Below are positions 4,141 through 64,000 of a stretch of DNA of 64,000 bases, one piece after another. The first letter of the stretch is position 1, and every line of letters starts with the position of its first letter. The position numbers and the translations under genes are program-made. The notes under the pieces are model-generated. The model was not told where the DNA came from. It saw only the letters and a program-made list of their open reading frames with translations, and made no database searches. This DNA is from Escherichia coli (GTDB lineage: Bacteria > Pseudomonadota > Gammaproteobacteria > Enterobacterales > Enterobacteriaceae), in NCBI RefSeq assembly GCF_002854065.1, contig NZ_CP024147.1. The stretch is one strand, 5' to 3'.

Positions 4141-6636
4141 TCAGAAGGTTAATTCTGTTTCCAGCAGCGTCAGGATACTTTGTGCATCTTGCGCGGCAAA
4201 CAATGACTGGCGGAAGTTTTTATTCACCAGTTTACGCGCCAGCTGCGAGAAGACTTTCACATGATTCATCCCTTCGTTAGCACCCAGCGTCAGCATGATC
4301 ACCAGTTCGACTTCGCCCATTTCTGACTGCCAGTCAACCGGTTTCGCCAGCCGGGCAATGCTGATACTGGAATGACGGATCCACTGAGATTTGGTGTGCG
4401 GGATCGCCACGCCAAAACCAACGCCAGTGGTGACAATCTCTTCCCGCTGCCAGACATCCTCTTCCAGCTCGAACGGATGTTCAGTGCGCCCGTTAACGCC
4501 GAGGTTACCGCACAGGAACTGGATCGCCTGCTCTTTATTGCTAAAGGCCTGATCAACGAAGATATTCTCCAGCGCCAGCAGCGGGCGAACGTCTTCTTCC
4601 GGCGTAAAGGCGGTGAGTAACGCTTCAATTTCCTGCGCGCTGCGGCATTCACACGCCTGACGTGCCAGTTCCCGACACGCCTCGCTATCCAATTGACGAA
4701 GCTGGCTTTTCACCGCCGGAATGCGCGGGCTACTCATACTCAGCTCATCCAGGCCCAGCCCAAGCAGTAGCGGCAGATAACGGCTTTCACCGCCCAGTTC
4801 ACCGCAAATGCCTACCCATTTGCCCCGCTGATGCGCAGTGGTAACTATTTGCTGCAACATGCGCAGGAACGATGGCGTAATCGGGTTATATAGCGGCGAT
4901 ACGCGCGGGTTATTACGATCGACCGCATACAGATACTGGGTCATATCGTTGGAGCCGATACTGAAGAAATCGACCTCATCGCAGAAGTGATCGATGATGT
5001 AGCACACCGACGGCACTTCCACCATGATACCCAGCGTAATCGTCTCTGCATGACGCAGGCCATCGCGCTTAAGCTCAACGATCGCTTTTTGGATCTCGCC
5101 CTTCACCCATAAGATCTGATCGAGGCTGTGGACCATCGGGATCATCAACTGGGCGTTGCCGAAACTGGCGGCGCGCAAAATGGCCCGCAGTTGAGTGCGG
5201 AACAGGCCAGCAAATTCCGGGTAAATACGTACCGCGCGATAGCCGAGGAACGGGTTCTCTTCCTGGGGAATATTCAGATAAGGAATGCTTTTATCGCCTC
5301 CGATGTCCATTGTGCGGAAGATAATCGGCTTGTCGCCCGCTGCCAGTAGCACCTGCTGGTAGGCTTCAAATTGCTCCTGCTCGTCCGGCGCGCTGTCGCG
5401 ATCCATATAGAGCATTTCGGTACGGAACAGCCCGACGCCTTCCGCGCCGTTGGCAAACGCGCCAGGCGCTTCCAGAGCGGTGCCAATATTCGCCGCGATA
5501 TCAATACGCTTGTTATCACGGGAATAAGCCAGCTGCGCGGCAGCCTGCGCCTGTTGTTTTTGGCGTTTATCCGCCAGCGTCTGCGCGACCTGATAATAAC
5601 CGCTCACCGCGTCATTCGGGTTAATCGCCAGCACGCCGCACTGGGCGTCAAGCACTGCAGGTTGCCCGGCATAACGGGCAATCGCATCCAGCGGCAGGCC
5701 GCTCAGTACCGGGATCGCCGAGGCGCGGGCCAGAATCAGGGTATGCGAGGTGCGCCCGGTTTTCTCCAGAATCATACCCGCAAGATTTTTTAAATCCAGG
5801 CTTAAAAACTGGCTTGGGGTTAAATCCTCGGCCACCAGAATAGTCGGTTTTTCCAGCACCAGATTGTTGCGCGGCTTCAGTTCCGGCCAGGTAATATGCA
5901 GCAACTGTTCGCTAATATCGCGAATGTCGCTAACACGTTCGCGCAGATAATCGCTGGCAGAAGCAGAAAGTTTGGCGCAAACCTGCTCCATATTGCTGAT
6001 GATCGCCGCCCCCAGCCCCTGATGCTGTTCTGTCATCAGGCGACGGATATTGCCTGCAAATTCATCATCCTGAATCAGCGACAAATGGGCGCTGAGGATA
6101 GTTTTGCTTTCGCCGTCACGCTCACGCAATTGCTGGTTCAGTTGCTCGGCAAGCGTTGCCAGGCTGTGCTCCAGCCGGGTGGAATCTTGCGCACTGGCGG
6201 GGATTGCCCGATAACTGTCGAGGCTGTCGCTTTGTAACAGGGTCAGCGTACCCACGCCGACGCCGCTTGCCAGCACATTGCCGTACAGTAAATCCGGGTT
6301 AAGGCGGCTTAATGAACGCGGCAGCGGATGCGCCGTCAGTTCTGCCTGCGTAGGCTGAACGCTGTCGCTGTCGATAAAGCGCACCTGGATGTACTCTTCC
6401 AGCACGCGCCGCGCCTGCTCTTCATCGCTGCCGCTAATGTTCAGGCTGCAACTGTCATTAAATAGGGTGCCGGTGCCAATCAGCGCCAGCGAGCTTTTGG
6501 CATCGGCCTTTGCGTTCTGGCGATGGTTAATAAAAGTGATTTCGCTTTGCCACTGGCTGCACTGTTCTTTAAGTTCCCACGCCGGACGAGCATGTAGACC
6601 GTTAGGCAAAGGACAGAGAAATTGAATCGTTAACAT
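4141..6636 (-). CDS. fryA: PTS multiphosphoryl transfer protein FryA (HPr - enzyme I - IIA fusion)
   Basis: 831-aa ORF with N-terminal HPr-like domain (GLHARPA), enzyme I PEP-utilising core and C-terminal fructose-type IIA domain. Confidence 0.9.
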   Translation of the reverse strand: MLTIQFLCPLPNGLHARPAWELKEQCSQWQSEITFINHRQNAKADAKSSLALIGTGTLFNDSCSLNISGSDEEQARRVLEEYIQVRFIDSDSVQPTQAELTAHPLPRSLSRLNPDLLYGNVLASGVGVGTLTLLQSDSLDSYRAIPASAQDSTRLEHSLATLAEQLNQQLRERDGESKTILSAHLSLIQDDEFAGNIRRLMTEQHQGLGAAIISNMEQVCAKLSASASDYLRERVSDIRDISEQLLHITWPELKPRNNLVLEKPTILVAEDLTPSQFLSLDLKNLAGMILEKTGRTSHTLILARASAIPVLSGLPLDAIARYAGQPAVLDAQCGVLAINPNDAVSGYYQVAQTLADKRQKQQAQAAAQLAYSRDNKRIDIAANIGTALEAPGAFANGAEGVGLFRTEMLYMDRDSAPDEQEQFEAYQQVLLAAGDKPIIFRTMDIGGDKSIPYLNIPQEENPFLGYRAVRIYPEFAGLFRTQLRAILRAASFGNAQLMIPMVHSLDQILWVKGEIQKAIVELKRDGLRHAETITLGIMVEVPSVCYIIDHFCDEVDFFSIGSNDMTQYLYAVDRNNPRVSPLYNPITPSFLRMLQQIVTTAHQRGKWVGICGELGGESRYLPLLLGLGLDELSMSSPRIPAVKSQLRQLDSEACRELARQACECRSAQEIEALLTAFTPEEDVRPLLALENIFVDQAFSNKEQAIQFLCGNLGVNGRTEHPFELEEDVWQREEIVTTGVGFGVAIPHTKSQWIRHSSISIARLAKPVDWQSEMGEVELVIMLTLGANEGMNHVKVFSQLARKLVNKNFRQSLFAAQDAQSILTLLETELTF

Positions 6637-6660
6637 AACCGCTCCGGGTTAATCAGGAGA

Positions 6661-7698
6661 TCATCTGAAATCCGTCAGTTGAACAACCGTCTCACGCGTA
6701 AGACGTTGAATAAGGGCAGATAAAAGTTGCTCCATCTGCAAAATGTCGCGGCAATCGGCAATCGACGCGGCGCAATGTCCGTGGCGGGTGGCAGGCCCCA
6801 TCACCACTGTGGGTACGCCGGTACCGGTTAAGTGCACCGCTCCACCGTCCGTGCCGCCGTTACTGAACATATCCGCCTGTAACGGCACGCCAATTTCTGC
6901 CGCCACGGTTTCAATCCAGGCGGTGAGTTTTGGCGGCGCAATCAGTGACTTGTCGCTTAACACCAGCATCGGGCCGTTACCAATCTGGCGATGGTTAGCC
7001 GCGCCATAATCAAAGTTTTTCGCCCAGCAGGCGGTATCAAGGACAATGGCGACGTCCGGCGACACCGCGCGGGTGGCAGTTTGCCCGCCGCGTAACCCCA
7101 CCTCTTCGCTGGAACTGGCCACCAGCCACACTTCCGCAGGCAGTTCGGCGTCGTGCAGCTCACGTAGTAACGTCACCAGCAGATAGCAACCGAGGCGGTC
7201 ATCAAAGGCTTTCCCCATCACTCGCTGGTGGGGGAGAACCTGAAAAGTGGTATCGAACGTGACGCGATCGCCTGGACGAATTCCCGCCTGCATCACTTCG
7301 TCATACGAGCGCGCGCCAATATCCACGCGCATGGCGCTGACGTCATTCCCCTGCCGGTCGCCGTCAAGCAGGCCGGGAATTTTGCACTCTTCACGGGTGG
7401 TGATGCGCACCGGCTGCAGCTGGCGGGCAGCCATGCGTACGTTGCCAACCGGCAGTACATCAATCGCCCCTTCGCGGGAGATGCTGCGCACCATAAATCC
7501 CACTTCATCCATATGCGCACAGATCATCACCTTCGGACCTGTCGATTCATTGAGGCGGATCAGCACCGATCCCAGACCATCAAATCGCACTTCTTTTTGC
7601 AGGCGATCCGCTTCTTCCAGCAGGATCTGCCGTACTTCCTGTTCCGAGGAGGCGATCGCATCTGCCTCGCTCAACGCTTTTAATAGCGATAAATCCAT
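6661..7698 (-). CDS. ypdE: M42-family aminopeptidase YpdE
   Basis: 345 aa, position and length match K-12 ypdE inside fry operon. Confidence 0.85.
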
Positions 7699-8783
7699 TA
7701 TGCCTCTCCCGTGAGCAACACTGTTTTCGGCATGGCGTAGAGCACTTCTGCGCCTTGCGGGGTGACCAGCACAACATCTTCGATGCGCACGCCCCCTTGC
7801 CCTGGCAAATAAATCCCCGGCTCCACGGTCAGTAACATGCCTGGCTGTAGCGTCGTGGTGTCCCGCGGTGAAAAACGCGGATCTTCATGAACTTCAATGC
7901 CGATAGCATGACCGGTGTTATGACCGAAATAGTGGCTAAAACCTGCCTCGGTAATCACCCGACGCGCGGCTTCGTCAACCTGCTGGCAGCGCACGCCGGG
8001 GCGAATTGCAGAGATTGCTGCGAGCTGTGCCTGCAAAACAATCTGATAGACGTTAAACAGCGGGTGAGATTCGGCGCTCACCCCTTCGCCATTCACCAGC
8101 AAGGTGCGCGTCATATCAGAGCAGTAGCCCTGATAGAGCGCACCGAAATCGAGAGTGACAAACTCGCCCGCTGCAACAATCTTGTCGCTGGCTTTGCCGT
8201 GCGGCAGCGCCCCACGCCAGCCACTGGCGACAATGGTGTCAAAAGAGGTTTTTTCTGCGCCCTGCTGGCGCATAAACCACTCCAGTTCAGCGGCTATCTC
8301 GCGCTCGCTCATCCCCGCCTGAATAAAGCGGCGAATATGCTCTGCACCGCGATCGGCAATCCCACAGGCAAGGCGGATTTTCTCCACCTCCTCTGGCGTT
8401 TTGATTTGCCGCAGCACATCCGGCGTGGCGCTAACCAGTTTCGCATTGAGTTCAGACTGCCAGCGGTGCGCGGTTTCCCAACTCACCTGCTGGCCTTCAA
8501 AACCGAGCGTTTGCAACTGCTCATCGGCAATGATTTGCCTGGCGATGGTTGTAAGCGTGTGCGTCGCGTCAAGCAAATGCAGCTGGTAACCTTGCGTGCG
8601 GGCTTCTACATCCGCGTAATAGCGCGAGTCCACCAGAATGTGCGCACTTTCACGGCTAATCAGCACATAGCCTGATCCGGTGGAGATCCCCAGATGCGGC
8701 TGTTTGTTCTGCCGTGAGGAGAGAAGCACCGCATCCAGTTGTTGCGCCTTAAGCCAGTCACGCAGCGAAGCGAGTAATGTCAT
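7698..8783 (-). CDS. ypdF: Xaa-Pro aminopeptidase (M24) YpdF
   Basis: 361 aa with M24 pita-bread metal-binding motifs ([17 protein letters not shown]); start overlaps ypdE stop. Confidence 0.85.
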
Positions 8784-8797
8784 CTGGATTATCCTTC

Positions 8798-10045
8798 TTA
8801 CAGGCTATCGATTAACAATTTGCCTTTACGGAACATCATCAGACGCAGGAACACCACCATCAGCGCAGTAATGACTGCCCCCAGCGCGATCCCCGCCATG
8901 TAGACGCCGAGGTTAGTGACCAGTGGCCATGCCCAGATAGCGGACTCCGGGAACCATTGCACTGCGCCCAGCCAGACAGCTGCGGTTGAGCCGACAATCG
9001 CGCCAACCATATAGGACGGAATGGCGGTGATGGGGCTTTCCAGTGCAAACGGAATCGCACCCTCACTAATCCCCATAAACGCCAGGAACATAGCGGTTTT
9101 ACCCTGCGGATAAAGCTGAGCACTGAACAGACGTTTGCCGGTTAAACGGCGGTCGATAATGGTCGCCAGACCCAGACCAATCGGCGGAATAACAATAGCG
9201 ATAGAACGAGCGGTGACCGGTAATACGTGGTCAGTGGTAAAGCTGAAGGCAACGAAACCTGCGGCTTTGTTGATCGGGCCACCAAGGTCGATTGCTGTCG
9301 CCGCGGCGATCCCCATTGCGTACATCAGCGCGCCCTTCTCACCTGCGGCAGTCAGCACAGTACGGATACCGCCGTTGATCCAGCCCCCAAAGGGGGTGAT
9401 GACGTAGTACATCGCCAGCATGACAAAAATAGCGGAAAGAATCGGTAGCAAAAATGTGGTTTTGAACGCTAACAGGAAATCCGGTAACTGGATTTTCTGG
9501 TTCATCCATTTCACAAGGTAACCAGCAACGATAGATATAATCAGCGCACCAATGAAGGTGGACGGCACCGGCGAAGAGGTCGCCCATTGCATAGTGCTGG
9601 GATCGAAGTTCAGCAGTTGCGTCGGCTGGGTAGACATCAAGCCGCCGATAAAACCAGCCGGAAACGCCAGTTTGCCACCGATAGAGTTCGCAACAAAAGC
9701 AGCAAACATCGGAATGGCAAAACCAAACAACACGCCGCCGAAGGACTGCGACAACCAGGCAAATTTCAGTAAGGAGAGGTCGAAACCGGAGAATTTCCCG
9801 CTATTAAGAGCATCCATGATGCCGATCTCAGCAGGAATTTTAAGCCAGCTATAAGCAATCAGCTGGCTGAAAGCGAGGATCACACCGCCCATAATTAAGG
9901 TCGGCACCATGCGTGAAATCCCTGACATCACATGCTGCGGGAGTTCACCCCAGAAGCTGCTTTTAGAGGCCTGCGGATTCTTAACTGCCGCTGCCGCACC
10001 GGATGCGCCAGGCACAACGGTTGCACTGCGTTTTTTAATGGCCAT
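8798..10045 (-). CDS. fryC: PTS fructose-like IIC permease FryC
   Basis: 415-aa polytopic membrane protein, position in fry operon. Confidence 0.85.
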
Positions 10046-54437: not shown

Positions 54438-55799
54438 TCAGAAGAACAGTGACGGATCGCCCGCCCGTTTGATCAAGCGACCGTTTGCCATAATGCCCAT
54501 GCTTTCCAGCCAGCGTTCAAACTCCGGTGACGGGCGCAGGTTGAGTAACTGACGCACAGTGGCAGTGTCGTGGAAGGCGGTGGTCTGGTAGTTGAGCATG
54601 ATGTCATCGCCCAACGGCATCCCCATGATGTAATTGCAGCCTGCGGTGGCGAGCAGGATCATCAGGTTTTCGTTGAGGTTCTGGTCAGCGTCAGCGTGGT
54701 TGGTGTAACAGCAGTCACAGCCCATAGAGATGCCGCTCAGCTTGCCCATAAAGTGATCTTCTAAGCCCGCACGGATAATCTGGCGGTCGTTGTAGAGATA
54801 CTCCGGCCCAATAAAGCCGACCACGGTGTTGACGATAAACGGATCGTAATGACGCGCCAGCCCATAGTTACGTGCTTCCATCGTCACCTGGTCTGCGCCG
54901 AAGTTAGCGCCAGCGGATAGCGCTGAACCTTGTCCGGTTTCGAAGTAGAGGCAGTTTTCCCCGGCGATACGGTTGAACTCTGCACCCACTGCGCGCGCTT
55001 CGTCGAGCATCGCCAGTTCCACGCCAAACTCTTTCAGCCCTTTTTCACTGCCACAGATACTCTGGAAAATCAGCCCGCCTGGTGCGCCACGACGAATCGC
55101 TTCGATCTGGGTGGTGACGTGCGCCAGTACGCAGCCCTGAGTTGGGATGTTGAATTTGTCGATCACGCCATAGATGGTGTCCAGCACGCGGCTTAAGTTT
55201 TCCACGTCGTCAGTCACCGGGTTAACGCCGATCACCGCATCGCCCACCCCGAAGGAAAGCCCTTCGTAGATTTGCGCGGCGATACTTTGCACGTCGTCAC
55301 GGGTGTCATTTGGCTGCAAACGGGCGCTGAAGGTGCCCGGAATACCGATGGTGGTATTGGCCTTTTTGATTACCGGCATTTTCTTCGCGCCGTAGATCAG
55401 GTCCGCGTTGGAGCAAATCTTCGCTATCGCCGCGACCACTTCCGAGGTCAGCCCTTTGCGGGTAAAGGTAATGTCGTCCACGCTGGTTTCATCGCTCAGC
55501 ACATACTCACGCAGTTCGCTGATGCTCCAGTTTTTAATCTGGTTGTAGGCCGTTTCGTTAACATCGTCCTGAATCAGCCGCGTCACGCAGTCATCTTCAT
55601 AGGCAATCACCGGATTATTGCGGATGTCCGCTACGGTCATTTCCGACAACACCTGCTTTGCCGCCACGCGCTCCTGTGAACTTGCCGCTGCAACGCCTGC
55701 CAGCACATCCCCCGAACGCAGTTCGTTGGCTTTAGCCAGCACCTCTTTTACATCCTTAAACTGATATACATTGCCGAACAATGTGGTCTTTAGTTTCAT
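54438..55799 (-). CDS. eutB: Ethanolamine ammonia-lyase large subunit EutB
   Basis: 453 aa, MKLKTTLFGNVYQFKDVKEVLAKANELRSGD. Confidence 0.95.
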   Translation of the reverse strand: MKLKTTLFGNVYQFKDVKEVLAKANELRSGDVLAGVAAASSQERVAAKQVLSEMTVADIRNNPVIAYEDDCVTRLIQDDVNETAYNQIKNWSISELREYVLSDETSVDDITFTRKGLTSEVVAAIAKICSNADLIYGAKKMPVIKKANTTIGIPGTFSARLQPNDTRDDVQSIAAQIYEGLSFGVGDAVIGVNPVTDDVENLSRVLDTIYGVIDKFNIPTQGCVLAHVTTQIEAIRRGAPGGLIFQSICGSEKGLKEFGVELAMLDEARAVGAEFNRIAGENCLYFETGQGSALSAGANFGADQVTMEARNYGLARHYDPFIVNTVVGFIGPEYLYNDRQIIRAGLEDHFMGKLSGISMGCDCCYTNHADADQNLNENLMILLATAGCNYIMGMPLGDDIMLNYQTTAFHDTATVRQLLNLRPSPEFERWLESMGIMANGRLIKRAGDPSLFF

Positions 55800-55986
55800 A
55801 AGTCGTTCCCTCAGGAAGAAGTGATGAGTAACATTTCTTCCAGCATTCGAACAATTCTATTTCATCGTTAGCCCTTGTCCTGTAAGGTAATTGTCTTAAC
55901 ACGCCCGTTATTCATCATGCCGAACGCAACCGAACGCGCCGGATACATGATCGGGTTTATCCAGTCGTTATGTCGAGGTATCCGGT

Positions 55987-57192
55987 TTGAGCAAGACACC
56001 ACTCACAGCAAAGGCCATCGCAGCCGCGCAGCCAAAAGACAAGCCCTATAAACTCACCGATTCACTGACGCCAGGACTGTTTTTGCTGGTGCATCCCAAC
56101 GGCAGCAAATACTGGCGATTCAGGTATTGGTTGAATAAACGAGAGTTTTTGCAGGCCATTGGTGTTTACCCGCTAATCACACTCAAAGAAGCACGCAGAC
56201 GCGCCACAGAGAGCCGATCTCTGATTGCTAATGGAATTAATCCAGTGGAAGAAGCACGCAAGGAAAAAGCCATTGATGCGCTCAACATGGCGGCAGGTTT
56301 TAAGACGGTAGCGGAGGACTGGCTGGCTACCAGGGTCAGCGGGTGGTCAGAGTCCTACACGAAACAGGTTAGATCGGCACTGGAAAAAGATGTTTACCCC
56401 GTGCTGGGGAAGCGGTCAATTGTCGATATAACGGCCCGTGACGTGCTGGAATTGCTTCAGAAGAAAGAGCGTACCGCACCGGAACAAGCCAGGAAGCTAC
56501 GCCAGCGTATCGGGGAGATCTTCAAATTTGCCGTTATCACCGAACTGGTGGCAAGAAATCCGGTTGCAGATCTGAACACAGCACTAAAAGCCCGCCGTCC
56601 GGGCCACAACGCATGGCTGCAAATTAACGAAATTCAGGCGTTCTATGAAGCACTTGAGAGAGCCGGGAGCGTCCAGATTCAGACGGCAATACGTTTGCTC
56701 ATATTGAGCGCTCTAAGGACGGTGGAACTGCGTAAAATGCGCTGGGAATGGGTTAACCTGGAAGACGCGATCATCACCCTACCCGCTGAAGTCATGAAGG
56801 CCCGTCGCCCGCATGTGGTCCCGCTATCACGGCAGGCGGTAGAGCTATTGCAGGACCAGTTTACTCGCACCGGATACAGCGCTTTCGTCTTCCCTGGTCG
56901 ATTCATGGATAAGCCCTTGTCTGCCAGCGCGATACTGAAAGCCCTGGAGCGTATCGGATACAAGTCGATAGCCACAGCACACGGCTGGCGTACAACGTTC
57001 AGCACGACGCTTAACGAGTCCGGCAGGTACTCACCAGACTGGATTGAAATCCAATTGGCCCACGTCCCGAAGGGTGTACGCGGTGTATATAACCAGGCGG
57101 CCTATCTCAAACAGCGCCGTCAAATGCTTCAGGACTACGCCGACGCCATTGATTCAATACTGGCTGGTGAAGGTAATCCGCTGGAACCGTGA
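55987..57192 (+). CDS. intZ: P4-type tyrosine integrase (IntZ-like, CPZ-55-type prophage)
   Basis: 401 aa, apparent TTG start; catalytic R (LRTVELRKMRWEWV), HxxR (HGWRTTFST) and Tyr (GVYNQAAY) regions. Confidence 0.85.
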   Translation: MSKTPLTAKAIAAAQPKDKPYKLTDSLTPGLFLLVHPNGSKYWRFRYWLNKREFLQAIGVYPLITLKEARRRATESRSLIANGINPVEEARKEKAIDALNMAAGFKTVAEDWLATRVSGWSESYTKQVRSALEKDVYPVLGKRSIVDITARDVLELLQKKERTAPEQARKLRQRIGEIFKFAVITELVARNPVADLNTALKARRPGHNAWLQINEIQAFYEALERAGSVQIQTAIRLLILSALRTVELRKMRWEWVNLEDAIITLPAEVMKARRPHVVPLSRQAVELLQDQFTRTGYSAFVFPGRFMDKPLSASAILKALERIGYKSIATAHGWRTTFSTTLNESGRYSPDWIEIQLAHVPKGVRGVYNQAAYLKQRRQMLQDYADAIDSILAGEGNPLEP

Positions 57193-57259: not shown

Positions 57260-57418
57260 AATTATTCAATATCAAAAACTTACATCAATATTGCAACAAT
57301 AAAAACGGTGGCTTATGATCAGATCATGATTTTCGGTATGTGAACAGCAAAAACAAGAAGCCCGGAAAGGCGGCAACCAATCCGGGCGATATGGGAAAAG
57401 AGATTAGGAGGTTTCCCC

Positions 57419-58186
57419 ATGCGTAATAGTTTAGCAGTTCGCTTTAGCTTGCAGCAAGGCGAAGAATTATCACAGGAATATCAATTCATCAAATACGAAG
57501 AAGCGCCGGAACAGGTGCAAATAGCTTTTGATGATCAGCACTACGGCAACACTATCCGCTACGACGGTAAAAAATGGTTTCTCAATCCGGTAACAAATGC
57601 CATTCACGTATGTCAAATCATTACGCCAGTAAATAACAGCGCGGATAACGATTCGGCTATTGACGCTGAACTGGTGACAGAACCACTACCGCCACCGCCG
57701 CCAGTACAAGAAAGCGATGTAAAACCCGACGCCATCGATCTGACAGCAGAAGCCAGAGAGCGCAAACAACCGAAGCCGGAACAACCGCAAGCCAAGGATA
57801 ACAAACAGTGGCACGGTAACACGGCGTATCTGAATACGTTTGCTTGTCATCTTCATGAAGTGCTACCACAGGCCATCTATAGCACATGGTGCGACAAACA
57901 AACGGCGGCACACTTCCACCTGCTTTACGCGCTTTGCTACCTGGCAAGCTACGAAAACAAAGATGAAGGTATCGAGCTTGGCGAGGTGTTATATGGTGCT
58001 GAAAAGATCACAAAGGGCGGCGTAGTACCTGGTTTCCATATGGCCCGATCAACGTTCGATATCAAGATTAACGAGCTTGAACAGTGGGGATTAATCAAGG
58101 TAACACGAGGTAAGAAACGTAAGGACGGGCAAGGCAACTTGCCGAACAGTATCAAACTGAACTTTAAGCCGTACAGTTTAAAATAA
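57419..58186 (+). CDS. Prophage hypothetical protein with Pro-rich linker and possible C-terminal winged-helix DNA-binding domain
   Basis: 255 aa; AGGAGG SD 8 nt upstream; N-terminal domain, LPPPPPVQ...PKPEQPQ linker, C-terminal STFDIKINELEQWGLIKVTRGKKRK. Confidence 0.6.
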   Translation: MRNSLAVRFSLQQGEELSQEYQFIKYEEAPEQVQIAFDDQHYGNTIRYDGKKWFLNPVTNAIHVCQIITPVNNSADNDSAIDAELVTEPLPPPPPVQESDVKPDAIDLTAEARERKQPKPEQPQAKDNKQWHGNTAYLNTFACHLHEVLPQAIYSTWCDKQTAAHFHLLYALCYLASYENKDEGIELGEVLYGAEKITKGGVVPGFHMARSTFDIKINELEQWGLIKVTRGKKRKDGQGNLPNSIKLNFKPYSLK

Positions 58187-58194
58187 TCACACTA

Positions 58195-58220
58195 GGCGGG
58201 CAATGTTCCCGCCTTTTCTT
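58195..58220 (+). terminator. Terminator after the 255-aa gene
   Basis: GGCGGG-CAATGTT-CCCGCC followed by TTTTCTTT. Confidence 0.7.
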
Positions 58221-58243
58221 TGCCTCAATCCTATAAAATTCAC

Positions 58244-58282
58244 ATCCCGAAAATCGGTATCTGGGTATCCCGAAAATCGGTA
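58244..58282. repeat. Two tandem 16-bp direct repeats, each internally palindromic
   Basis: ATCCCGAAAATCGGTA at 58244-58259 and 58267-58282 (core CCGA-AAA-TCGG), 23-bp spacing. Confidence 0.7.
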
Positions 58283-58289
58283 AGTAATA

Positions 58290-59400
58290 ATAAGTATTAT
58301 CCTTAAAGGTAAAAACCATATAAGTAAGATCTATCTCTTCAAGAATGTATATATTCACTACGTTCATATATACATGAGAAGTTTCCCTTTCATGCAGTCA
58401 AAACTACATTCATCAGCATCGCTTTCTGCGCTCTCCTTCCCAGCAAGCTGGAAAGGCCCATTCACTCACGCACAACCTGCAAACCAGACCAACATACCAT
58501 CATGGCGATTCGTTCATGGGTAGCGCGGGTATATCTCAAAGGGTGATTTCTTCTTGGTGGACCTTCGGAAGACTTCGAGCAATCGCCAGCTCAAAAGACG
58601 GTCTGGCAGTGATGGTTATCATCGACAGCATTGAGCGCTACCGCGCCAACTTACAGCAGCAGGATAACTACCGAAGGAAAACCCACGCCGAAAGGGATTG
58701 ACTCACTGCAAAGCCAATGGGTTTTATCAGCGTATACAGACCAGACAGGAAACAGCAGCAAAGCAGCGTATAGCCAGGTGCAGACAGTACCATCACACAA
58801 CGCACAGCAGGCTGAGGTGAACACTCAAACAGGTTTATCCCCGCAGCCGACCAACGCAAACCATCCTGACCGTGCCAAATTCGAACGGAATGGTGCCTGT
58901 AACGCGATGAACACATATAACCGCTTACTTGCTTACCTGAAAACTTCACGTCGCCACAGAGCGATTTAGACGCATTATAATTGATGCGATTTCATTAAAT
59001 TTTCACCAGACACCGGAACAACGCCGATTAATCCAGGAATGGATTCATCGACATGCGCCGCTTTCCCCGCAGAACAGTCTCGCCTGAATAGTCTCACCAA
59101 CCAGATTTCAGATTGTCCAATCAGGCACGTCTCATTAAACGACAGAATGCGGCCTACAACGCCATCGCTGCCGATCTCGTTTGAGCAAGGTGCTGAGACT
59201 GAATGACGGACGCCCACTCCTCAGAGCTGAGGAATCGCCACACAGAACGCTGAGATCTGATATTACCGCCGCACCATTCCACGCCAGACGAATCAATCTA
59301 ATCACACCTGAGCAAATGCATTGCCAAAAATTAAGGCCGTCAGAATGCGTTATATTGCGTTTAAACGGCATCTAATTTTAATTAGTTTTGATGTGGTGAT
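58290..59400. other. ORF-poor prophage segment with only short overlapping ORFs; possible gene remnants or noncoding RNA
   Basis: No ORF over 112 aa on either strand across about 1.1 kb; the largest is S/T/Q-rich and of low complexity; contains an AT-rich 10-bp inverted repeat ATGTATATAT/ATATATACAT (58345-58375). Confidence 0.4.
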
Positions 59401-59668
59401 TGCAGGCAAAAAAAATCCCGCCGGAGAGAGCGGGGAAGTGAAATCAATCGTTGTAGTTATAGATCACATTTTGAGTAAGGGTTACCAGCCCTTGAGTAAT
59501 ATTATCCCTGTATTACGTGAGATGCGCAATTATTTTTTGCTAATTAAAAGTTTTGTAAACATTACAGAATATCCCCTTTCCCTATATGGTAAAAGATGTG
59601 AAACAGGGACATGAGGAATATAATATTAAGTATCAACAGTAATGTTGGTCTTTAATTTCATTCAGGGC

Positions 59669-59710
59669 GCGGTGAGGGTTTTCCCATATTTTTCCTCACC
59701 GCTACTTTTT
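59669..59710 (+). promoter_or_regulatory. Hairpin plus T-run directly upstream of the alpA-like gene ribosome-binding site
   Basis: GCGGTGAGG-16 nt loop-CCTCACCGC followed by TACTTTTT and then GAGGTGAGAACATG. Confidence 0.45.
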
Positions 59711-59721
59711 GAGGTGAGAAC

Positions 59722-59913
59722 ATGAATGATAGCGAATTAATGACGGTGAGCGAGGTAGCCGCTTTATTCGGCGTTACCCGACGCACTATATTCCGCTGGC
59801 TGAACAAGATTAAAGGTTGGCCCGTTCCGGTTACTCCGGTCGGTGCACGAATTAAGTTTATCCGATCTGAGATTTTGGAATTCTATAAAAACAAAGGCGC
59901 TCGCCACCAATGA
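59722..59913 (+). CDS. AlpA/Xis-family small HTH DNA-binding protein (prophage regulator or excisionase-like)
   Basis: 63 aa, LMTVSEVAALFGVTRRTIFRWL HTH; SD GAGGTGAG. Confidence 0.7.
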   Translation: MNDSELMTVSEVAALFGVTRRTIFRWLNKIKGWPVPVTPVGARIKFIRSEILEFYKNKGARHQ

Positions 59914-59989
59914 AAACAGCTACTGAGATTATCAAATAACCTATTGATTTAATAAGCTAGCTACCGCAATTTCTGAAGGAATAGGCAGC

Positions 59990-60316
59990 ATGAAAATCAA
60001 AGCAAACACAATTAAAGAAATAACATCAATCAAAGTAAAAGGAGCAGATGCCATGCATTCATTAGACAGTTATTTTCAGCGCACGACAGCCCCTAAATCA
60101 GCCGCCCAGGAACGCCGTGAGGAATTCCAGGAAAAAGTGATGCGTTCTGCTGATTATATTGCGGACAAGTTCGTGGAAACGGTTCGGCCACTTGTTGATG
60201 AAGTAGCTGATAAACTTCAGTCTGAAATGCCGGAAGACATGGAAGGCACTGCAAAGGCGCGACTCCTTTTTGAATTAAGTCGTCGTTTCGGCGTGTCAAT
60301 AAGCACTTTTAAATAA
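59990..60316 (+). CDS. Hypothetical prophage protein
   Basis: 108-aa ORF, AAGGA SD, co-directional tight spacing with neighbours. Confidence 0.5.
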   Translation: MKIKANTIKEITSIKVKGADAMHSLDSYFQRTTAPKSAAQERREEFQEKVMRSADYIADKFVETVRPLVDEVADKLQSEMPEDMEGTAKARLLFELSRRFGVSISTFK

Positions 60317-60333
60317 TCGGAGGAGAAAAGACA

Positions 60334-60876
60334 ATGGACGCATTTGATGTACTGACAAACAAAGGCGATGAACTGGTAGCACAGCGTGATAAAACCGCCA
60401 ACGAAGGGGAACGCGCACTGTTAAATAAGCAGATTAAAGCGATCCGTATGGCCCAGTTTAAATTAATCAGCAATGAAGTTATCGAAATAATTAAACCGCA
60501 GATCCCACAAATCGTTGCTGACGCTATTAAAGCCGCCGGACTGGAGAAACGCATTGCCGGGCTGAAAACGAACGCAGAGAAAATGGAGATGCACAAACAG
60601 AGCGGTGCTCCGACTCCGGATGAGTACTTCTCACCGGATGCTGAGTTTATGGCGCAGGTTGAGGAACGTCTGGGTAGCTGTCTCACCGAGGAACAGCGTC
60701 GCTATTTTGATGGAGTGGATAGTTCGGCAGGTATTGACCTGAACTCGTGTTTCGGTCGTGAAATTGAGCATTTTGATGCCGCCCCGTCTATGCCGGAGCC
60801 AGAACCAGAAATGGCCGCCGATCCTGAAGCTGAGCAACGGAAACGCGTATTCAATGCGATAGGGATTCGGTACTGA
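60334..60876 (+). CDS. Hypothetical prophage protein (acidic C-terminus)
   Basis: 180-aa ORF with strong GGAGG SD 8 nt upstream. Confidence 0.6.
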   Translation: MDAFDVLTNKGDELVAQRDKTANEGERALLNKQIKAIRMAQFKLISNEVIEIIKPQIPQIVADAIKAAGLEKRIAGLKTNAEKMEMHKQSGAPTPDEYFSPDAEFMAQVEERLGSCLTEEQRRYFDGVDSSAGIDLNSCFGREIEHFDAAPSMPEPEPEMAADPEAEQRKRVFNAIGIRY

Positions 60877-60927
60877 TCGGATAAAAGAAAGCCGGGAATT
60901 ACCCCGGCTGACTTAACAATGTGACCA

Positions 60928-61302
60928 ATGAACAAATCGGACAAGACAAACAGGATAAGCAGTCTCGAAACAATGTTCGGGAACTATATTAGCACAAGTC
61001 CGGAGAAAATCATCATGTTGGCACTACGCATCATGCAGGGCATCGCTAAGACCCTCGCAGAACATGTCTTAGACCTGAAACATTCGCCACTGAGCAAACA
61101 GGCCATGAAGCGCCAAACGCTTCGTCTGTGGGCTGAATATTCGCTTGGAACTATCAATAAAATCATCGACATGAAATCGGGGCCGAGCAACCAGAGCGCG
61201 GAGGAAATGGAGTTCATCAGGCGTTTAATTCTCATTCGCAGAGATATTCATAGCCAGTTACACAGCGTGGGAATCGATATTAATGATGGGACGGGCGATT
61301 AA
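60928..61302 (+). CDS. Hypothetical prophage protein
   Basis: 124-aa ORF; weak SD, start uncertain. Confidence 0.45.
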   Translation: MNKSDKTNRISSLETMFGNYISTSPEKIIMLALRIMQGIAKTLAEHVLDLKHSPLSKQAMKRQTLRLWAEYSLGTINKIIDMKSGPSNQSAEEMEFIRRLILIRRDIHSQLHSVGIDINDGTGD

Positions 61303-61340
61303 TTTTCGGACAAGTACAATGCGCGCGCGAGGAGCTGAAC

Positions 61341-61571
61341 ATGAAGCAAGATATTGCAGACAGGCTGGAGATACTCGAAGGCCAGCGGGCAGAAGCGAAA
61401 CAACTACGTAAGCAGGCCAGAAGAGCGCACAGGAACTACGAAGCAGAATCACTGACCGCTTTCATCAACTTCACAAACCGTTGCATCCAGGAGTGTTACA
61501 GGGAGGATGCAGAAAACTGGCTGGATTCATTGCCAGAACAGACTCTGCATGAACTGAACGGCGACCAGTAA
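61341..61571 (+). CDS. Hypothetical prophage protein
   Basis: 76-aa ORF with GAGGAG SD. Confidence 0.5.
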   Translation: MKQDIADRLEILEGQRAEAKQLRKQARRAHRNYEAESLTAFINFTNRCIQECYREDAENWLDSLPEQTLHELNGDQ

Positions 61572-61859: not shown

Positions 61860-64000
61860 ATGAGTGGAAATCTCGGGACCATATACTACGAGGTCGATGC
61901 CCGCACTGGGAAACTTCTTATCGCGCAACAGCAGGCGGAAGAGGCGTTCGATCGCATTGAACGAGGAGCGCGGAAGGCTGATAGCGGCGTCAAAAAGTTA
62001 AATACGCAGATGACTAAAACATCAGCCGCAGTCAAAACCAACCTTTCCCCGGCAATCCGTAACGCATCATACCAGATCGCAGACCTTGCCACTCAATTGC
62101 AGATGGGCGGTAATGCGCTTCAGGCGTTCGCTGTGCAGGGTGCGCAGTTATTAGCTGGCTTTGGCACGATGGGCGCGGTAGCTGGCGCGGTGCTGGCTAT
62201 CGCTGGCGCTATGGGTGGAAGCCTGGCACAAGGCGCTGATAGTGCAGCCGGATCGGTTGAGTATCTGGACAAGGCGATCACCAAACTGAACGAGGTCATA
62301 GCTGTAAATGAACAGGGCGTGACGGTGATGAGTGATAGTTACGCCAGACTTTCTAAGGTTAACGCTGAAGTAGCGAAACAGATGCGGAACATGGCTGAAA
62401 TTCAGGCAATTGCAGCACTGCGTGACCTGAAAGAACAGGCAAGCCAGGCACAGGGGGAAATGTCGTCATTCTGGCGCAGCTTGCAGGGTGGTAAAGCTGA
62501 CGCAGCAGCAGCAGCACAGGCACTTGATGATCTTGGAATCACAACCAACGACTACAAAGAGGCGATAGCCATACTGAACGCCAATCAGCCGGATACACAG
62601 GCGCAAATGGCAACGCTAGCCAAATCCGTGATGTATGTTGGAGAGCAATATGATCTGACCAACCAGCAAGCATACGAATTTATACGCGCACTAAATAAGG
62701 CCGCGACAACGAAAACGCCGGAAGCCATGCAGGAGCTATCTGGCTTCATGCAGGTTTTGCTTCAGGATACCGAAAACGGTAACGAGGCATTCCGTGAACT
62801 GGCTATCAAATTCGTCGATGCACAAACCAAAGGCGCAATGTTGGAGGACCAACTAAACCGACTGAAAGGCGCTATTAGTGACGCAGCCACAGAAGCCAGA
62901 AACGCAAACTTTACCACTATGCTCAACACCGTCGCCGCACGCCTGGCAACCATTGAGCAAGGTTGGGAGGCAGGCGTTAGGATGCAGATGAAAGCCCAGG
63001 GCTACACTGAAGAGCAGATCGATGAATATGTGAACATGGAAACGGCGTACCGTGATGCAAAAGCCGCTTTGGACGAGAAGAACAAGGCCGACCGTGAAGC
63101 TATTGCGCTATCCAAACGCCAGGCCGCAGAAGCAGCCCGCAAGGCAAAACAGGAAGAAGCTGAAGCACAACGCAAGGCCAAACAGTTAGCCGCGCAGAAG
63201 GAGCAGGCAGGACGCTTTACGCAGCAAGTAATGACGGAATACCTGACGACCGTAGATCCGGCAACAGGCAAGGCGTTTAACCCTGCCGCACAAGTAGAAA
63301 TGCAGGAGCAGCAGAAGAAAGCGGCGCTGGATAAATACAGACAGTTGGGCGTCCTGGATGAACAGCAGTACCAGAACACGCTAACCGCCATCCAGAAAAC
63401 CGCGTCAATGCGCCGCCAGCAAATCATCAAAGACGAGGCCGACACGTTATTCAACAATCAGCAACAGTTGATCGGCACATTTGGCGATTTCTTCGGTGAA
63501 CTGTCTGGAGTCATAGCAGACGGTGCAGGTGAGCAAAACGCGGCATATCAAGCGCTATTTGCTGTGCAGAAGGGTTTTGTATTGGCATCAGCAGCTTTAA
63601 GCCTTCAGAAAGCGCTTGCTGAGGCAAACGCCTTGCCTTTCCCGGCTAATCTTCCGGCCTATGCGCAAGCTATGTCAGCAGGTACGCAGATCATTTCAGC
63701 TATTCGTGGAATAGCTTTCGGTGGCGGACGCTACAACGGCGGCGCGGTTGGTGCTGGCAACCTGTACCGCGTGGGTGAACACGGTAAGCCTGAGATATTC
63801 AAGGCGAACAATGGCAGCCAGTACATGATCCCAGGTGATAACGGTCGCGTGATAAGTAATCGTGACATTGGCGGCGGTGGCGGCGTAACAATCAACAGCC
63901 CGATCACCATTAACACTACGAATGGCTTCAGTGATGAAGACTCAAGGCGTCTTGAGGAAGCGATGAAGCGCGTAGCTATGGGCGTTTGCAGGCAGGAGTC
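61860..64000 (+). CDS. Phage tail tape measure protein, 5' part; ORF runs off window end
   Basis: Open frame from ATG 61860 to the window end (over 700 codons; absent from the ORF track because no stop); hydrophobic Gly/Ala-rich segment, long A/Q/K-rich coiled coils, GNLYRVGEHGKPEIF motif resembling lambda gpH. Confidence 0.65.
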   Translation, partial: MSGNLGTIYYEVDARTGKLLIAQQQAEEAFDRIERGARKADSGVKKLNTQMTKTSAAVKTNLSPAIRNASYQIADLATQLQMGGNALQAFAVQGAQLLAGFGTMGAVAGAVLAIAGAMGGSLAQGADSAAGSVEYLDKAITKLNEVIAVNEQGVTVMSDSYARLSKVNAEVAKQMRNMAEIQAIAALRDLKEQASQAQGEMSSFWRSLQGGKADAAAAAQALDDLGITTNDYKEAIAILNANQPDTQAQMATLAKSVMYVGEQYDLTNQQAYEFIRALNKAATTKTPEAMQELSGFMQVLLQDTENGNEAFRELAIKFVDAQTKGAMLEDQLNRLKGAISDAATEARNANFTTMLNTVAARLATIEQGWEAGVRMQMKAQGYTEEQIDEYVNMETAYRDAKAALDEKNKADREAIALSKRQAAEAARKAKQEEAEAQRKAKQLAAQKEQAGRFTQQVMTEYLTTVDPATGKAFNPAAQVEMQEQQKKAALDKYRQLGVLDEQQYQNTLTAIQKTASMRRQQIIKDEADTLFNNQQQLIGTFGDFFGELSGVIADGAGEQNAAYQALFAVQKGFVLASAALSLQKALAEANALPFPANLPAYAQAMSAGTQIISAIRGIAFGGGRYNGGAVGAGNLYRVGEHGKPEIFKANNGSQYMIPGDNGRVISNRDIGGGGGVTINSPITINTTNGFSDEDSRRLEEAMKRVAMGVCRQE

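What the first reader, a model, noticed from the sequence alone, without database searches (positions are those of the whole stretch)
59722..61571. Operon of an AlpA-like regulator plus four small unknown proteins
Five co-directional, tightly spaced genes (63, 108, 180, 124 and 76 aa), several with strong Shine-Dalgarno sequences, lie between the regulatory region and the tape measure gene. I recognise none of the four downstream products. Short, unannotated prophage early genes like these commonly encode superinfection-exclusion, anti-defence or host-takeover functions, so this is the most plausible place in the window for an undescribed function.
Basis: inference. Interest (0 to 1): 0.5.

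Follow-up and report, generated by a model that had tools for sequence, protein, structure and literature searches.

The report
Core operon of a CPZ-55-type satellite-like element
The five small genes are real, but they are not ordinary prophage early genes: they are the regulator-led operon of a small E. coli mobile element (the CPZ-55 "cryptic prophage" family), which also occurs as 8-10 kb plasmids and usually carries a phage DNA-packaging gene, so it looks like an undescribed kind of phage hitch-hiker.

Summary
The five co-directional ORFs exist. Homologue alignments and Shine-Dalgarno positions show that two are over-extended: gene 2 is most likely 87 aa rather than 108, and gene 4 is 95 aa rather than 124. 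Spacing is 17-139 nt, so it is not uniformly tight.

Gene 1 is an HTH_17 (excisionase/Vis/AlpA-superfamily) protein. The other four match nothing in Pfam, PHROGs, NCBIfam, PADLOC, PDB sequences, 50,697 phage records or IMG/VR. A search of 1.84 billion representative proteins returned only 43 hits, all relatives.

The region is not a prophage. It is a ~10 kb island at the eutB/eutA site of E. coli, the site of K-12's CPZ-55. Genes 2, 3 and 4 (families A, B and C; C is YffM) are syntenic core genes of a mosaic element family. The usual order is HTH, [HNH], A, B, C, small terminase (YffO), YffP. The family occurs as islands with different integrases and as circular 8-10 kb plasmids with a resolvase. 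A terminator-like hairpin sits directly before the HTH gene in all 11 elements examined.

The window's variant has lost HNH, TerS and YffP. It has a lineage-specific 76-aa gene and a full tape-measure gene.

Best reading, by inference: this is a phage-responsive, helper-exploitation operon of a satellite-like element. Biochemical functions remain unknown.

The parts
55811..55818 (.). Left junction of the island: TCAGGAAG next to the 13-bp TAAGTCGTTCCCT spacer after eutB.
   Evidence: Sequence found at 55799-55818. PMC6379469 reports the same 8-bp target duplication and 13-bp spacer for CPZ-55.
55987..57192 (+). IntZ-type tyrosine integrase (401 aa).
   Evidence: 92.8% identical to K-12 IntZ. 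PHROG 1 integrase at 1e-65. RefSeq names it intZ.
57419..58186 (+). 255-aa YffL-like protein, a candidate regulator or replication protein. It is flanked by copies of a 16-nt motif (ATCCCGAAAATCGGTA) at 57312-57344 (inverted) and at 58244-58259 and 58267-58282 (direct).
   Evidence: 28% identical to YffL over 134 aa, E 7e-10. Repeats. No Pfam, PHROG or NCBIfam hit. The functional role is inference only.
58187..59668 (+). About 1.5 kb without a convincing gene. The sequence is mosaic, and a 194-nt block (58428-58620) is 90% identical to the DNA upstream of K-12 yffM.
   Evidence: blastn against other variants. No Rfam family; only a sub-threshold GcvB-like hit. RefSeq calls an 89-aa hypothetical at 59345-59614 in one genome only.
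59669..59712 (+). Leader hairpin: stem GCGGTGAGGG/CCTCACCGC, 14-nt loop, then TACTTTTTG. It ends 10 nt before the HTH start codon and is terminator-like.
   Evidence: Fold of -24.1 kcal/mol, z -3.6. An equivalent hairpin plus U-tract is present before the HTH gene in 11 of 11 elements examined, with different stem sequences.
59722..59913 (+). Gene 1: 63-aa HTH_17 (MerR-type winged helix; excisionase/Vis/AlpA superfamily) regulator.
   Evidence: Pfam HTH_17 at 6.3e-6. PHROG 66. TIGR01764 'excise' at 25.6 bits, just under its 28.8 cut-off. P4 Vis at 14.9 bits. Also conserved in plasmid forms that have no integrase.
60053..60316 (+). Gene 2: family A, most likely 87 aa (the ORF extends to 59990, giving 108 aa). 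Acidic and predicted helical.
   Evidence: Homologues start at Met22. 87-aa annotation in ATCC 8739. SD AAGGAG lies 8 nt upstream. Family A is present in every variant.
60334..60876 (+). Gene 3: family B, 180 aa. The N-terminal ~90 residues form long helices. The rest is an acidic, low-confidence half carrying repeated D/E-x-YF motifs and a basic C-terminal helix (RKRVFNAIGIRY).
   Evidence: AlphaFold pLDDT above 90 for residues 1-80 and below 70 beyond. Alignment A1. pI 4.2 for the C-terminal half. Split into two genes in some variants.
60890..60909 (.). 8-bp GC-rich hairpin between genes 3 and 4. The T-run follows it only on the minus strand.
61015..61302 (+). Gene 4: family C, the YffM family, 95 aa (not 124). 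A confident three-helix bundle.
   Evidence: 35% identical to K-12 YffM. 191 clusters at 90% identity, nearly all E. coli, 91-104 aa. AlphaFold pLDDT 90.6, pTM 0.80.
61341..61571 (+). Gene 5: 76-aa acidic helical ORF found only in this variant of the island. It sits where other variants carry TerS and YffP.
   Evidence: Singleton in clustering. Only relatives of about 65% identity or more among the 1.84e9 representatives, most above 80%. Strong SD GAGGAG. Only synonymous differences among close relatives.
61860..64000 (+). Tape-measure protein gene, running off the window end (713 codons are open).
   Evidence: 99.9% identical to the 726-aa protein of L003. TIGR02675 at 68.8 bits on the L002 allele; 32-36% identity of the L003/window allele to siphovirus TMPs.

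Best explanation
The five genes form the regulator-led operon of a small mobile element of the CPZ-55 family, not of a prophage.

Shown:
- The island sits at the CPZ-55 site (eutB/eutA) behind an IntZ integrase.
- Gene 1 is an AlpA/Vis-type HTH.
- Genes 2, 3 and 4 (families A, B and C; C is YffM) are unrelated to each other. They keep a fixed order in every member of the family: HTH, [HNH], A, B, C, [0-2 small genes], small terminase (YffO), YffP.
- Members exist as chromosomal islands with at least three different integrases or sites, and as circular 8-10 kb plasmids with a serine recombinase.
- A terminator-like hairpin immediately precedes the HTH gene in all of them.

Inferred:
- The family is a phage satellite or hitch-hiker. 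It carries its own small terminase, and often an HNH nuclease, so that a helper phage's capsids package its DNA.
- The operon is kept silent by the leader terminator and is switched on during phage development, by read-through or antitermination and then by the AlpA-like activator.
- A, B and C are element-specific proteins that act on the helper. Possible roles are redirecting packaging or capsid assembly, blocking the helper's own terminase, or derepressing the helper.
- B looks like an elongated oligomeric adaptor or scaffold-type protein: a helical N-terminal half, an acidic disordered half with YF motifs, and a basic C-terminal helix. C is a small three-helix-bundle binding module.
- The window's variant has lost HNH, TerS and YffP. 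It carries a lineage-specific 76-aa gene and a tape-measure gene instead. It is either a packaging-defective derivative or uses the helper in a different way.
For: Context:
- The window matches E. coli chromosomes at the eutB/eutA site.
- The integrase is 93% identical to IntZ. The 255-aa protein resembles YffL, and gene 4 resembles YffM.
- The CPZ-55 junction sequence is present.

Core status of A, B and C:
- The same gene order is seen in L005, L006, L007, L010, L011 and the Citrobacter locus L014.
- It is also seen in the plasmid forms L018, L021, L023 and L024.

Packaging genes:
- PF20901 Sf6_terminase is recorded on the TerS genes.
- K-12 YffO hits it at 1e-7.
- The TerS is about 32% identical to phage small terminases.
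- HNH_3 genes are present in many variants.

Plasmid form:
- The 8,750-bp contig L018 is circularly permuted relative to L020 from another sample.
- PLSDB holds pRHB34-C15_2, a 9,003-bp circular, non-mobilizable plasmid.
- Plasmid forms lack an integrase yet keep the HTH gene. It is therefore more than an excisionase.

Leader hairpin: present in 11 of 11 elements, z -1.2 to -4.8 (at or below -2 in 10 of 11).

Mobility:
- The same module occurs at a second chromosomal site with a different integrase.
- Alleles of neighbouring genes do not co-vary.

Not phage genes: there is no tblastn hit in 50,697 phage records and none in IMG/VR.

Purifying selection.

Analogy, from the P4 annotation: P4's Vis (AlpA-like) gene is followed by small helper-directed genes such as epsilon. 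PICIs are defined by integrase, AlpA-type regulator, terS and related components (PMC10085698).
Against: - No helper phage, induction, excision, packaging or transfer has been shown for any member. K-12 CPZ-55 excises only at less than 1e-5 per cell (PMC3105296), and no activity was seen in mobilome sequencing.
- The window's own variant has no TerS, HNH or YffP. The satellite argument therefore rests on relatives.
- A, B, C and the 76-aa protein have no detectable similarity to any characterised hijack protein. The P4 proteins were tested directly.
- Their folds are generic helical bundles.
- A short-motif search for the B C-terminus in phages found nothing.
- A TerS-like HTH protein could have been co-opted as a plain DNA-binding regulator.
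- The leader hairpin could merely terminate upstream transcription.
Confidence: 0.45

Rival explanations
1. Element housekeeping. A, B and C serve the element's own maintenance rather than a helper phage. Possible roles are replication initiation or recruitment of host replisome parts, copy-number control, partition, or cofactors for recombination directionality.
For: - The genes are core in both plasmid and island forms.
- Most members have no recognisable primase or replicase. Only weak HTH_36/DnaD_N hits appear on upstream genes.
- B's acidic tail with aromatic motifs resembles, by inference only, the short linear motifs used to dock on host replication proteins.
Against: - The genes lie inside an operon that also holds HNH and TerS and that is shut off by a leader terminator. 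That is an odd arrangement for functions needed in every generation.
- The plasmid forms have a separate Rep-like gene pair and a ~1.2-1.6 kb non-coding stretch upstream that can account for replication.
- K-12 CPZ-55 keeps C but has lost A and B.
Confidence: 0.2
2. The small proteins are accessory anti-phage, anti-defence, superinfection-exclusion or host-takeover factors carried as cargo.
For: - They are small, fast-evolving ORFans on a mobile element.
- Alleles are highly diversified within one species: 191 clusters for family C at 38-77% identity. They are shuffled independently, as expected for arms-race genes.
- Satellites are known to carry tail-assembly inhibitors and other defences (PMC11364771).
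Against: - Cargo in this family sits elsewhere: between the integrase and the HTH gene, and after YffP or the TMP. Those positions vary in gene content.
- A, B and C never vary in presence or order.
- There are no PADLOC hits.
- There are no relatives in phages, where Tai-type systems mostly reside.
Confidence: 0.15
3. Decay products. In this TerS-less variant the operon is a non-functional remnant of a once-active element, and the 76-aa ORF is a chance or junction ORF.
For: - The variant lacks HNH, TerS and YffP.
- Gene 4 is frameshifted in strain ES9.
- A fusion of the 76-aa N-terminus to the TMP C-terminus exists (P0046).
- In one genome the island's right end is removed by IS1.
- The 76-aa ORF has no diverged homologues.
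Against: - The module is intact in about 165 of 5,426 complete genomes.
- Substitutions are biased to synonymous sites.
- All five starts keep good Shine-Dalgarno sequences.
- The same variant has moved to a second site with another integrase.
Confidence: 0.12
4. Tail-related helpers. One or more of the small proteins, especially the 76-aa one just upstream, act as chaperones or partners of the island's tape-measure protein.
For: In siphoviruses the genes just upstream of the TMP encode its chaperones (general phage knowledge). The 76-aa gene occurs only in the variant in which it is the gene preceding the TMP.
Against: - A, B and C are equally present in the many members with no TMP.
- There is a 288-nt gap and no frameshift-type G/GT gene pair before the TMP.
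- There is no structural or sequence similarity to tail chaperones.
Confidence: 0.05

Closest known systems
Cryptic prophage CPZ-55 of E. coli K-12 (intZ, yffL-yffS)
   Same: - Same integration site and junction sequence.
- 93% identical integrase.
- YffL resembles the 255-aa protein, and YffM resembles gene 4.
- Sister islands (L003) end with a YffS gene.
   Different: - K-12's copy lacks the HTH gene, families A and B, and the tape-measure gene.
- It keeps yffN, the small terminase YffO and YffP, which the window's variant lacks.
- In the papers found, CPZ-55 is treated only as a cryptic or 'grounded' prophage, with no function given for these genes.
Phage-inducible chromosomal islands (PICIs) of Gram-negative bacteria
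   Same: - Small integrase island.
- AlpA-type regulator at the head of a co-directional operon.
- Own small terminase in most family members.
- Absence of capsid and lysis genes.
   Different: - No primase-replicase and no recognisable capsid-morphogenesis gene.
- The window variant has no terS and carries a tail gene (TMP), which PICIs typically do not.
- Plasmid forms exist.
Satellite phage P4, left operon (Vis/ORF88, epsilon, orf151, orf106, alpha)
   Same: - P4-type integrase.
- A small Vis/AlpA-like HTH followed by several small proteins of about 90-150 aa.
- P4 can also live as a plasmid. The operon layout is; the plasmid state is general knowledge.
   Different: No sequence similarity of A, B, C or the 76-aa protein to any P4 protein (all under 7 bits). 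No alpha primase and no sid-delta-psu.
Satellite-plasmids (PISP, cf-PISP) of Vibrio, and PICMIs
   Same: Minimal gene content, an AlpA-type regulator, and for the PISPs an episomal state combined with phage-derived packaging or capsid genes (PMC13230959, PMC10803314).
   Different: - Those elements are restricted to Vibrionaceae.
- They carry capsid genes and parA/repA (PISPs) or integrate next to fis (PICMIs).
- Nothing here is homologous to them as far as tested.
- The E. coli family has TerS, HNH and the A-B-C set instead.

Membership tests
AlpA family regulator (Pfam PF05930 Phage_AlpA) | Sequence match to the Phage_AlpA model. | tested here: not met
   The Pfam scan of the window protein lists HTH_17, HTH_23, YfeC-like, MerR and others, but not PF05930. 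A more distant family member (L010) carries both PF05930 and PF12728, and one RefSeq orthologue is named AlpA family.
AlpA family regulator (Pfam PF05930 Phage_AlpA) | Small (about 60-90 aa) MerR-type winged-helix protein of the excisionase/Vis superfamily, encoded on an integrase island. | tested here: met
   HTH_17 at 6.3e-6. PHROG 66 'excisionase and transcriptional regulator' at 1.5e-8. P4 Vis at 14.9 bits. The IntZ integrase lies 2.5 kb upstream.
AlpA family regulator (Pfam PF05930 Phage_AlpA) | Activates integrase, excision or the downstream operon. | not testable with these tools
   Needs expression experiments. Its conservation in integrase-less plasmid forms argues for a role beyond excision.
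PICI (definition of PMC10085698) | Integrase. | tested here: met
   401-aa IntZ-type tyrosine recombinase.
PICI (definition of PMC10085698) | Regulator homologous to AlpA, MerR or Stl. | tested here: met
   HTH_17/MerR-type gene 1.
PICI (definition of PMC10085698) | Primase-replicase module. | tested here: not met
   No primase or replicase hit for any island protein in Pfam, NCBIfam or PHROGs. Only one distant relative has a DUF5906 gene.
PICI (definition of PMC10085698) | Capsid-morphogenesis gene. | tested here: inconclusive
   No hit to any known capsid or size-redirection family. A, B or C could be analogues, but nothing shows it.
PICI (definition of PMC10085698) | Small terminase. | tested here: not met
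   Absent from the window variant and its close relatives. Present in most other family members.
PICI (definition of PMC10085698) | No other phage structural genes. | tested here: not met
   A full tape-measure gene follows the operon.
P4-like satellite | Psu, Delta, Sid, epsilon and alpha homologues. | tested here: not met
   Profiles of A, B and C, and the 76-aa protein, searched against all P4 proteins: best score 6.6 bits. No such hits for the other island proteins.
PICMI | Integration next to fis in Vibrionaceae; three core proteins for excision and replication. | tested here: not met
   The host is Escherichia or Citrobacter. The sites are eutB/eutA, rssA-ychJ and others. The definition is taken from the abstract of PMC10803314.
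Known anti-phage defence or Tai-type tail-assembly inhibitors | Match to a PADLOC model, or for Tai, homologues mainly in phage genomes. | tested here: not met
   No PADLOC hit below E 0.04 for the four proteins. No tblastn hit in 50,697 phage records. Tai sequences themselves were not compared.
CPZ-55-type element (family as defined here) | HTH_17 gene preceded by a hairpin plus U-tract, followed in order by family A, B and C genes. | tested here: met

The most novel reading that the evidence does not exclude
The operon is the phage-responsive hijack module of an undescribed family of E. coli and Citrobacter phage satellites. On this reading:
- The family includes K-12's 'cryptic prophage' CPZ-55.
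- It lives either as an integrase island or as an 8-10 kb 'non-mobilizable' plasmid, that is, a satellite-plasmid.
- It brings its own small terminase, and sometimes its own tape measure.
- It is gated by an antitermination-type switch in the leader.
- Families A, B and C are three new helper-manipulating proteins with no relatives among known satellite or phage proteins.
Probability: 0.35. Interest if true: 0.75.

Novelty: new variant of a known kind. Interest (0 to 1): 0.55.

Why it matters
If the inference holds, three things follow.

1. One of the nine 'cryptic prophages' of E. coli K-12 is a decayed member of a live family of phage hitch-hikers, not a phage remnant.
2. A set of small E. 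coli plasmids now classed as non-mobilizable would have a transfer route through phage capsids. [quoted passage not shown]
3. Families A, B and C would be new proteins for manipulating phage assembly or packaging. They are small, soluble and easy to test.

The material is accessible. The module is present in the common laboratory strain ATCC 8739 and in sequenced plasmids.

If the inference fails, the genes remain conserved ORFans of a small mobile element, of modest interest.

Tried and rejected
**Library searches for the four unknown proteins**
- PHROGs, NCBIfam and PADLOC gave nothing significant.
- Pfam, run on the four proteins concatenated into one query, also gave nothing. The weak kleA_kleC hit (E 0.066) was rejected as noise.
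- PDB sequence searches used profiles of A, B and C and the single 76-aa protein. They returned only chance hits. The apparent 1e-9 hits of family A to designed PPR repeat proteins have no individual matching stretch and are a repeat artefact.

**Homologue and phage searches**
- A full HMMER scan of 1.84 billion representatives, with the four proteins concatenated, returned 43 hits, all family members or fragments.
- tblastn of the four against 50,697 phage records found no match.
- tblastn of the B C-terminal motif alone found no match either, so the idea that it mimics a helper scaffold C-terminus gained no support.
- IMG/VR was scanned with the family C profile and gave none.
- The GTDB species representatives gave only one extra locus, in a Citrobacter MAG.

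**Structure**
- Family B is confident only in its N-terminal helices and has no meaningful match.

**Comparisons and other tests**
- hhalign among A, B and C shows they are unrelated to each other.
- Comparison with all P4 proteins found no similarity, apart from gene 1 to Vis.
- Rfam over the island found nothing above threshold.
- A search for an RNA partner complementary to the conserved leader loop gave only chance-level hits.
- Allele co-variation between modules, tried as a hint of physical partners, showed none.
- Pairwise dN/dS among close relatives rests on too few substitutions for a firm test.
- Literature searches for yffM, yffO, CPZ-55 and satellites with tape-measure genes found no functional information.
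Full report
**1. What is in the sequence**

The window holds five + strand ORFs at exactly the stated coordinates. Each has a GGAG-type ribosome-binding site 7-9 nt before a start codon. Two of them are shorter than the longest ORF suggests.

- Gene 4. Every homologue found is 91-104 aa and aligns from residue 30 of the 124-aa ORF. RefSeq annotates 95 aa. A GGAGAA lies before the ATG at 61015, and nothing comparable lies before 60928.
- Gene 2. All homologues start near Met22. In E. coli ATCC 8739 the gene is annotated as 87 aa directly after an HNH gene. The 21 upstream codons are not conserved in strain ES9.

The gene set is therefore 63, about 87, 180, 95 and 76 aa. The gaps are 139, 17, 138 and 38 nt, followed by 288 nt before the next gene.

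That next gene is a real tape-measure homologue. TIGR02675 scores 68.8 bits on the L002 allele of the island's tape-measure gene. The window's own allele, represented by the 99.9% identical L003 protein, is 32-36% identical to siphovirus TMPs. The ORF is open for 713 codons to the window end.

**2. Where it is**

The region matches E. coli chromosomes at 95-100% identity in 234-235 of 5,426 complete genomes. It is always single copy and never on a plasmid.

It lies in a ~10 kb island between eutB and eutA. This is the site of the K-12 'cryptic prophage' CPZ-55. The shared features are:
- The integrase is 93% identical to IntZ.
- The 255-aa protein after the integrase is a distant YffL.
- Gene 4 is a YffM homologue.
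- The junction sequence reported for CPZ-55 is present at 55799-55818.

The full island, as seen in L002 and L003, runs: intZ; the YffL-like gene; about 1.5 kb of non-coding DNA; the five genes; the TMP; two small, variable genes; and a YffS-type HTH protein. There are no capsid, portal, large terminase, other tail or lysis genes. This is not a prophage early region.

The best-matching complete genome (CUWW06) has the right end removed by IS1. The window's TMP ORF continues past that truncation point, so the window need not come from that strain.

**3. The four unknown proteins**

None has a significant hit in PHROGs, NCBIfam, PADLOC or Pfam, or among PDB sequences. tblastn against 50,697 phage records found nothing. 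IMG/VR has no relative of family C.

A full HMMER scan of 1.84 billion representative proteins returned 43 hits, all members or fragments of the same families. The gene 3 protein has homologues only in Escherichia and Shigella, apart from a single 106-aa partial fragment labelled Salmonella enterica. Family C (gene 4) has 191 clusters at 90% identity, almost all E. coli, plus one Citrobacter locus.

The three conserved families are unrelated to each other.

AlphaFold gives a confident three-helix bundle for family C (pLDDT 90.6). For family B, only the first ~80-90 residues are confident. They form long helices and are followed by an acidic, poorly ordered half with a pI of 4.2. That half carries repeated D/E-x-YF motifs and, in some alleles, a basic C-terminal helix. 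Fold searches give only generic helical matches.

All the proteins are soluble, and none has a signal peptide or a hydrophobic segment.

**4. The decisive evidence is comparative**

Looking up where diverged homologues are encoded shows one fixed gene order in every case: an HTH_17 gene, an optional HNH endonuclease, family A, family B (sometimes split into two genes), family C, zero to two small genes, a small terminase of the Sf6 type (PF20901), and a YffP-like gene.

K-12's yffO is this terminase, and yffP follows it. K-12 has lost the HTH gene, A, B and the TMP.

The Citrobacter example is a 6.3 kb island made of little more than an integrase, a YffS-like protein and this operon.

The same module also occurs at a different chromosomal site with a different integrase (strain ES9).

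Many family C genes sit on 8-12 kb contigs. One such contig (L018, 8,750 bp) is circularly permuted relative to a contig from another sample. PLSDB contains complete circular plasmids of 8.0-9.7 kb, typed non-mobilizable, that carry the whole operon. These have a Rep-like gene pair and a serine recombinase instead of an integrase. Profile searches confirm HTH, A, B and C in all four plasmid-form elements, and TerS and YffP in most of them.

Alleles of adjacent genes do not co-vary between elements. The order is fixed, but the alleles are shuffled.

Families A, B and C are therefore core genes of a mosaic family of small mobile elements. They are not variable cargo. Cargo positions lie elsewhere: between the integrase and the HTH gene, and after YffP or the TMP.

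**5. Control region**

In all 11 elements whose family-type HTH gene was examined, a GC-rich hairpin followed by a U-tract ends within about 15 nt of the start codon. The stems differ in sequence. In the window it lies at 59669-59712 (-24.1 kcal/mol, z -3.6).

There is no room for a promoter between this hairpin and the ribosome-binding site. The consensus scan finds no sigma-70 promoter on the + strand anywhere in the 1.5 kb upstream. Transcripts of the operon must therefore either read through this structure or start inside it.

Five variants keep the loop sequence UCCAUAUUU while their stems differ. I could not explain this.

**6. Most likely mechanism (inference)**

This explanation rests on four features:
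- A 6-10 kb element that carries its own small terminase, often with an HNH nuclease.
- An AlpA/Vis-type regulator at the head of the operon.
- No capsid genes.
- Either an integrase or a plasmid replicon.

These are best explained as a phage satellite or hitch-hiker that gets its DNA packaged into a helper's capsids.

The operon would be silent in the resting state because of the leader terminator. It would be switched on during helper development. The HTH protein would act as activator, since its retention in integrase-less plasmids shows it is more than an excisionase.

By position and co-transcription with HNH and TerS, families A, B and C would act on the helper. They might redirect packaging or capsid assembly, block the helper's terminase, or derepress the helper. 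P4's epsilon, SaPI Ppi and Cpm, and PICI Rpp do such things in known satellites; the SaPI and Rpp examples are from general knowledge and were not tested here. Family B has the look of an elongated oligomeric adaptor or scaffold-type protein. Family C looks like a small binding module. Nothing more specific can be claimed.

The window's variant lacks HNH, TerS and YffP. It has a lineage-specific 76-aa gene and a TMP. It may be a packaging-defective derivative, or it may exploit a helper differently.

**7. Against this reading**

- No member has been shown to be induced, packaged or transferred.
- K-12 CPZ-55 excises at less than 1e-5 per cell and showed no activity in a mobilome study.
- The proteins resemble no characterised hijack protein. 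P4 was tested directly.

**8. Comparison with known systems**

- The element fails the PICI definition of PMC10085698 on primase-replicase, on terS in this variant, and on the absence of structural genes.
- It fails the P4-like definition on all hijack genes.
- It is not a PICMI, because site and host differ.
- The plasmid forms fit the recent 'satellite-plasmid' concept described only for Vibrio, but they share no marker genes with those elements.
- In the literature library, CPZ-55 is treated only as a cryptic or grounded prophage. No function is reported for yffM, yffO or the genes studied here.

I therefore class the finding as a new variant of a known kind, the phage satellites, with the caveat that satellite behaviour is inferred.

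**9. Verdict**

Interest is moderate (0.55). The four proteins remain functionally opaque. Their context, however, turns a list of ORFans into a testable hypothesis about a neglected K-12 element and about how small 'non-mobilizable' E. coli plasmids might move.

Noticed in passing
window 59669-59712; equivalent positions in L005, L006, L007, L010, L011, L014, L018, L021, L023, L024: A hairpin plus U-tract immediately precedes the HTH gene in every element examined. The stems differ, but five variants keep the 13-17 nt loop sequence UCCAUAUUU. That conservation is not expected of a plain terminator.
   Followed up: partly
L018 (8,750 bp), L021, L023 = CP057168.1 (9,003 bp, circular), L024 = NZ_CP062904.1: The same operon occurs on small circular E. 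coli plasmids typed as non-mobilizable. They carry a Rep-like gene pair and a serine recombinase instead of an integrase. L018 is circularly permuted relative to L020 from an independent sample.
   Followed up: yes
L004 (K-12) 6112-6528 (yffO) and 6525-7118 (yffP): K-12 YffO is a small terminase of the Sf6 type (PF20901, 1e-7). Together with YffM and YffP, this marks CPZ-55 as a decayed member of this element family rather than a phage remnant.
   Followed up: yes
window 61860-64000; L002 22267-24465; L003 22261-24441; L005 12470-14665: A full-length tape-measure gene sits in a ~10 kb island that has no other tail gene. Two allelic types share only the first ~75 and the last ~200 residues. In L005 it is translationally coupled to the YffP-like gene. 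Its role in a satellite-like element is unexplained.
   Followed up: partly
window 57312-57344, 58244-58259, 58267-58282: A 16-nt motif (ATCCCGAAAATCGGTA) occurs as two exact direct copies just after the 255-aa YffL-like gene and as imperfect inverted copies just before it. These are probably operator or iteron sites.
   Followed up: no
L015 (E. coli ES9) 5297-9304: The HTH-HNH-A-B-C-76 module, about 95% identical, lies at a different chromosomal site (rssA/ychJ) behind a different integrase. Gene 4 is frameshifted there.
   Followed up: partly
window 58428-58620 and L004 5189-5380: A 194-nt non-coding block is 90% identical between this island and K-12 CPZ-55, where it lies just upstream of yffM. 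The rest of the 1.5 kb non-coding stretch is a mosaic shared piecewise with other variants. No Rfam family matches.
   Followed up: partly
window 60890-60909: An 8-bp GC-rich hairpin lies between genes 3 and 4. Its T-run follows it only on the minus strand, so it is not an obvious terminator for the operon.
   Followed up: no
protein P0046 (119 aa): A natural fusion of the first ~48 residues of the 76-aa protein to the C-terminal ~70 residues of the tape-measure protein. This indicates a deletion derivative of the island in some strain.
   Followed up: no
all loci of the family: Pairwise identities of HTH, A, B, C, TerS and YffP do not correlate between elements (Spearman rho from -0.25 to 0.40). 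Gene order is fixed while alleles are exchanged independently.
   Followed up: partly
window 55811 onward; L001 24368-25065: The island splits eutB from eutA. In strain CUWW06 an IS1 has removed the island's right end together with eutA-eutS, so the ethanolamine operon is broken in that strain.
   Followed up: no
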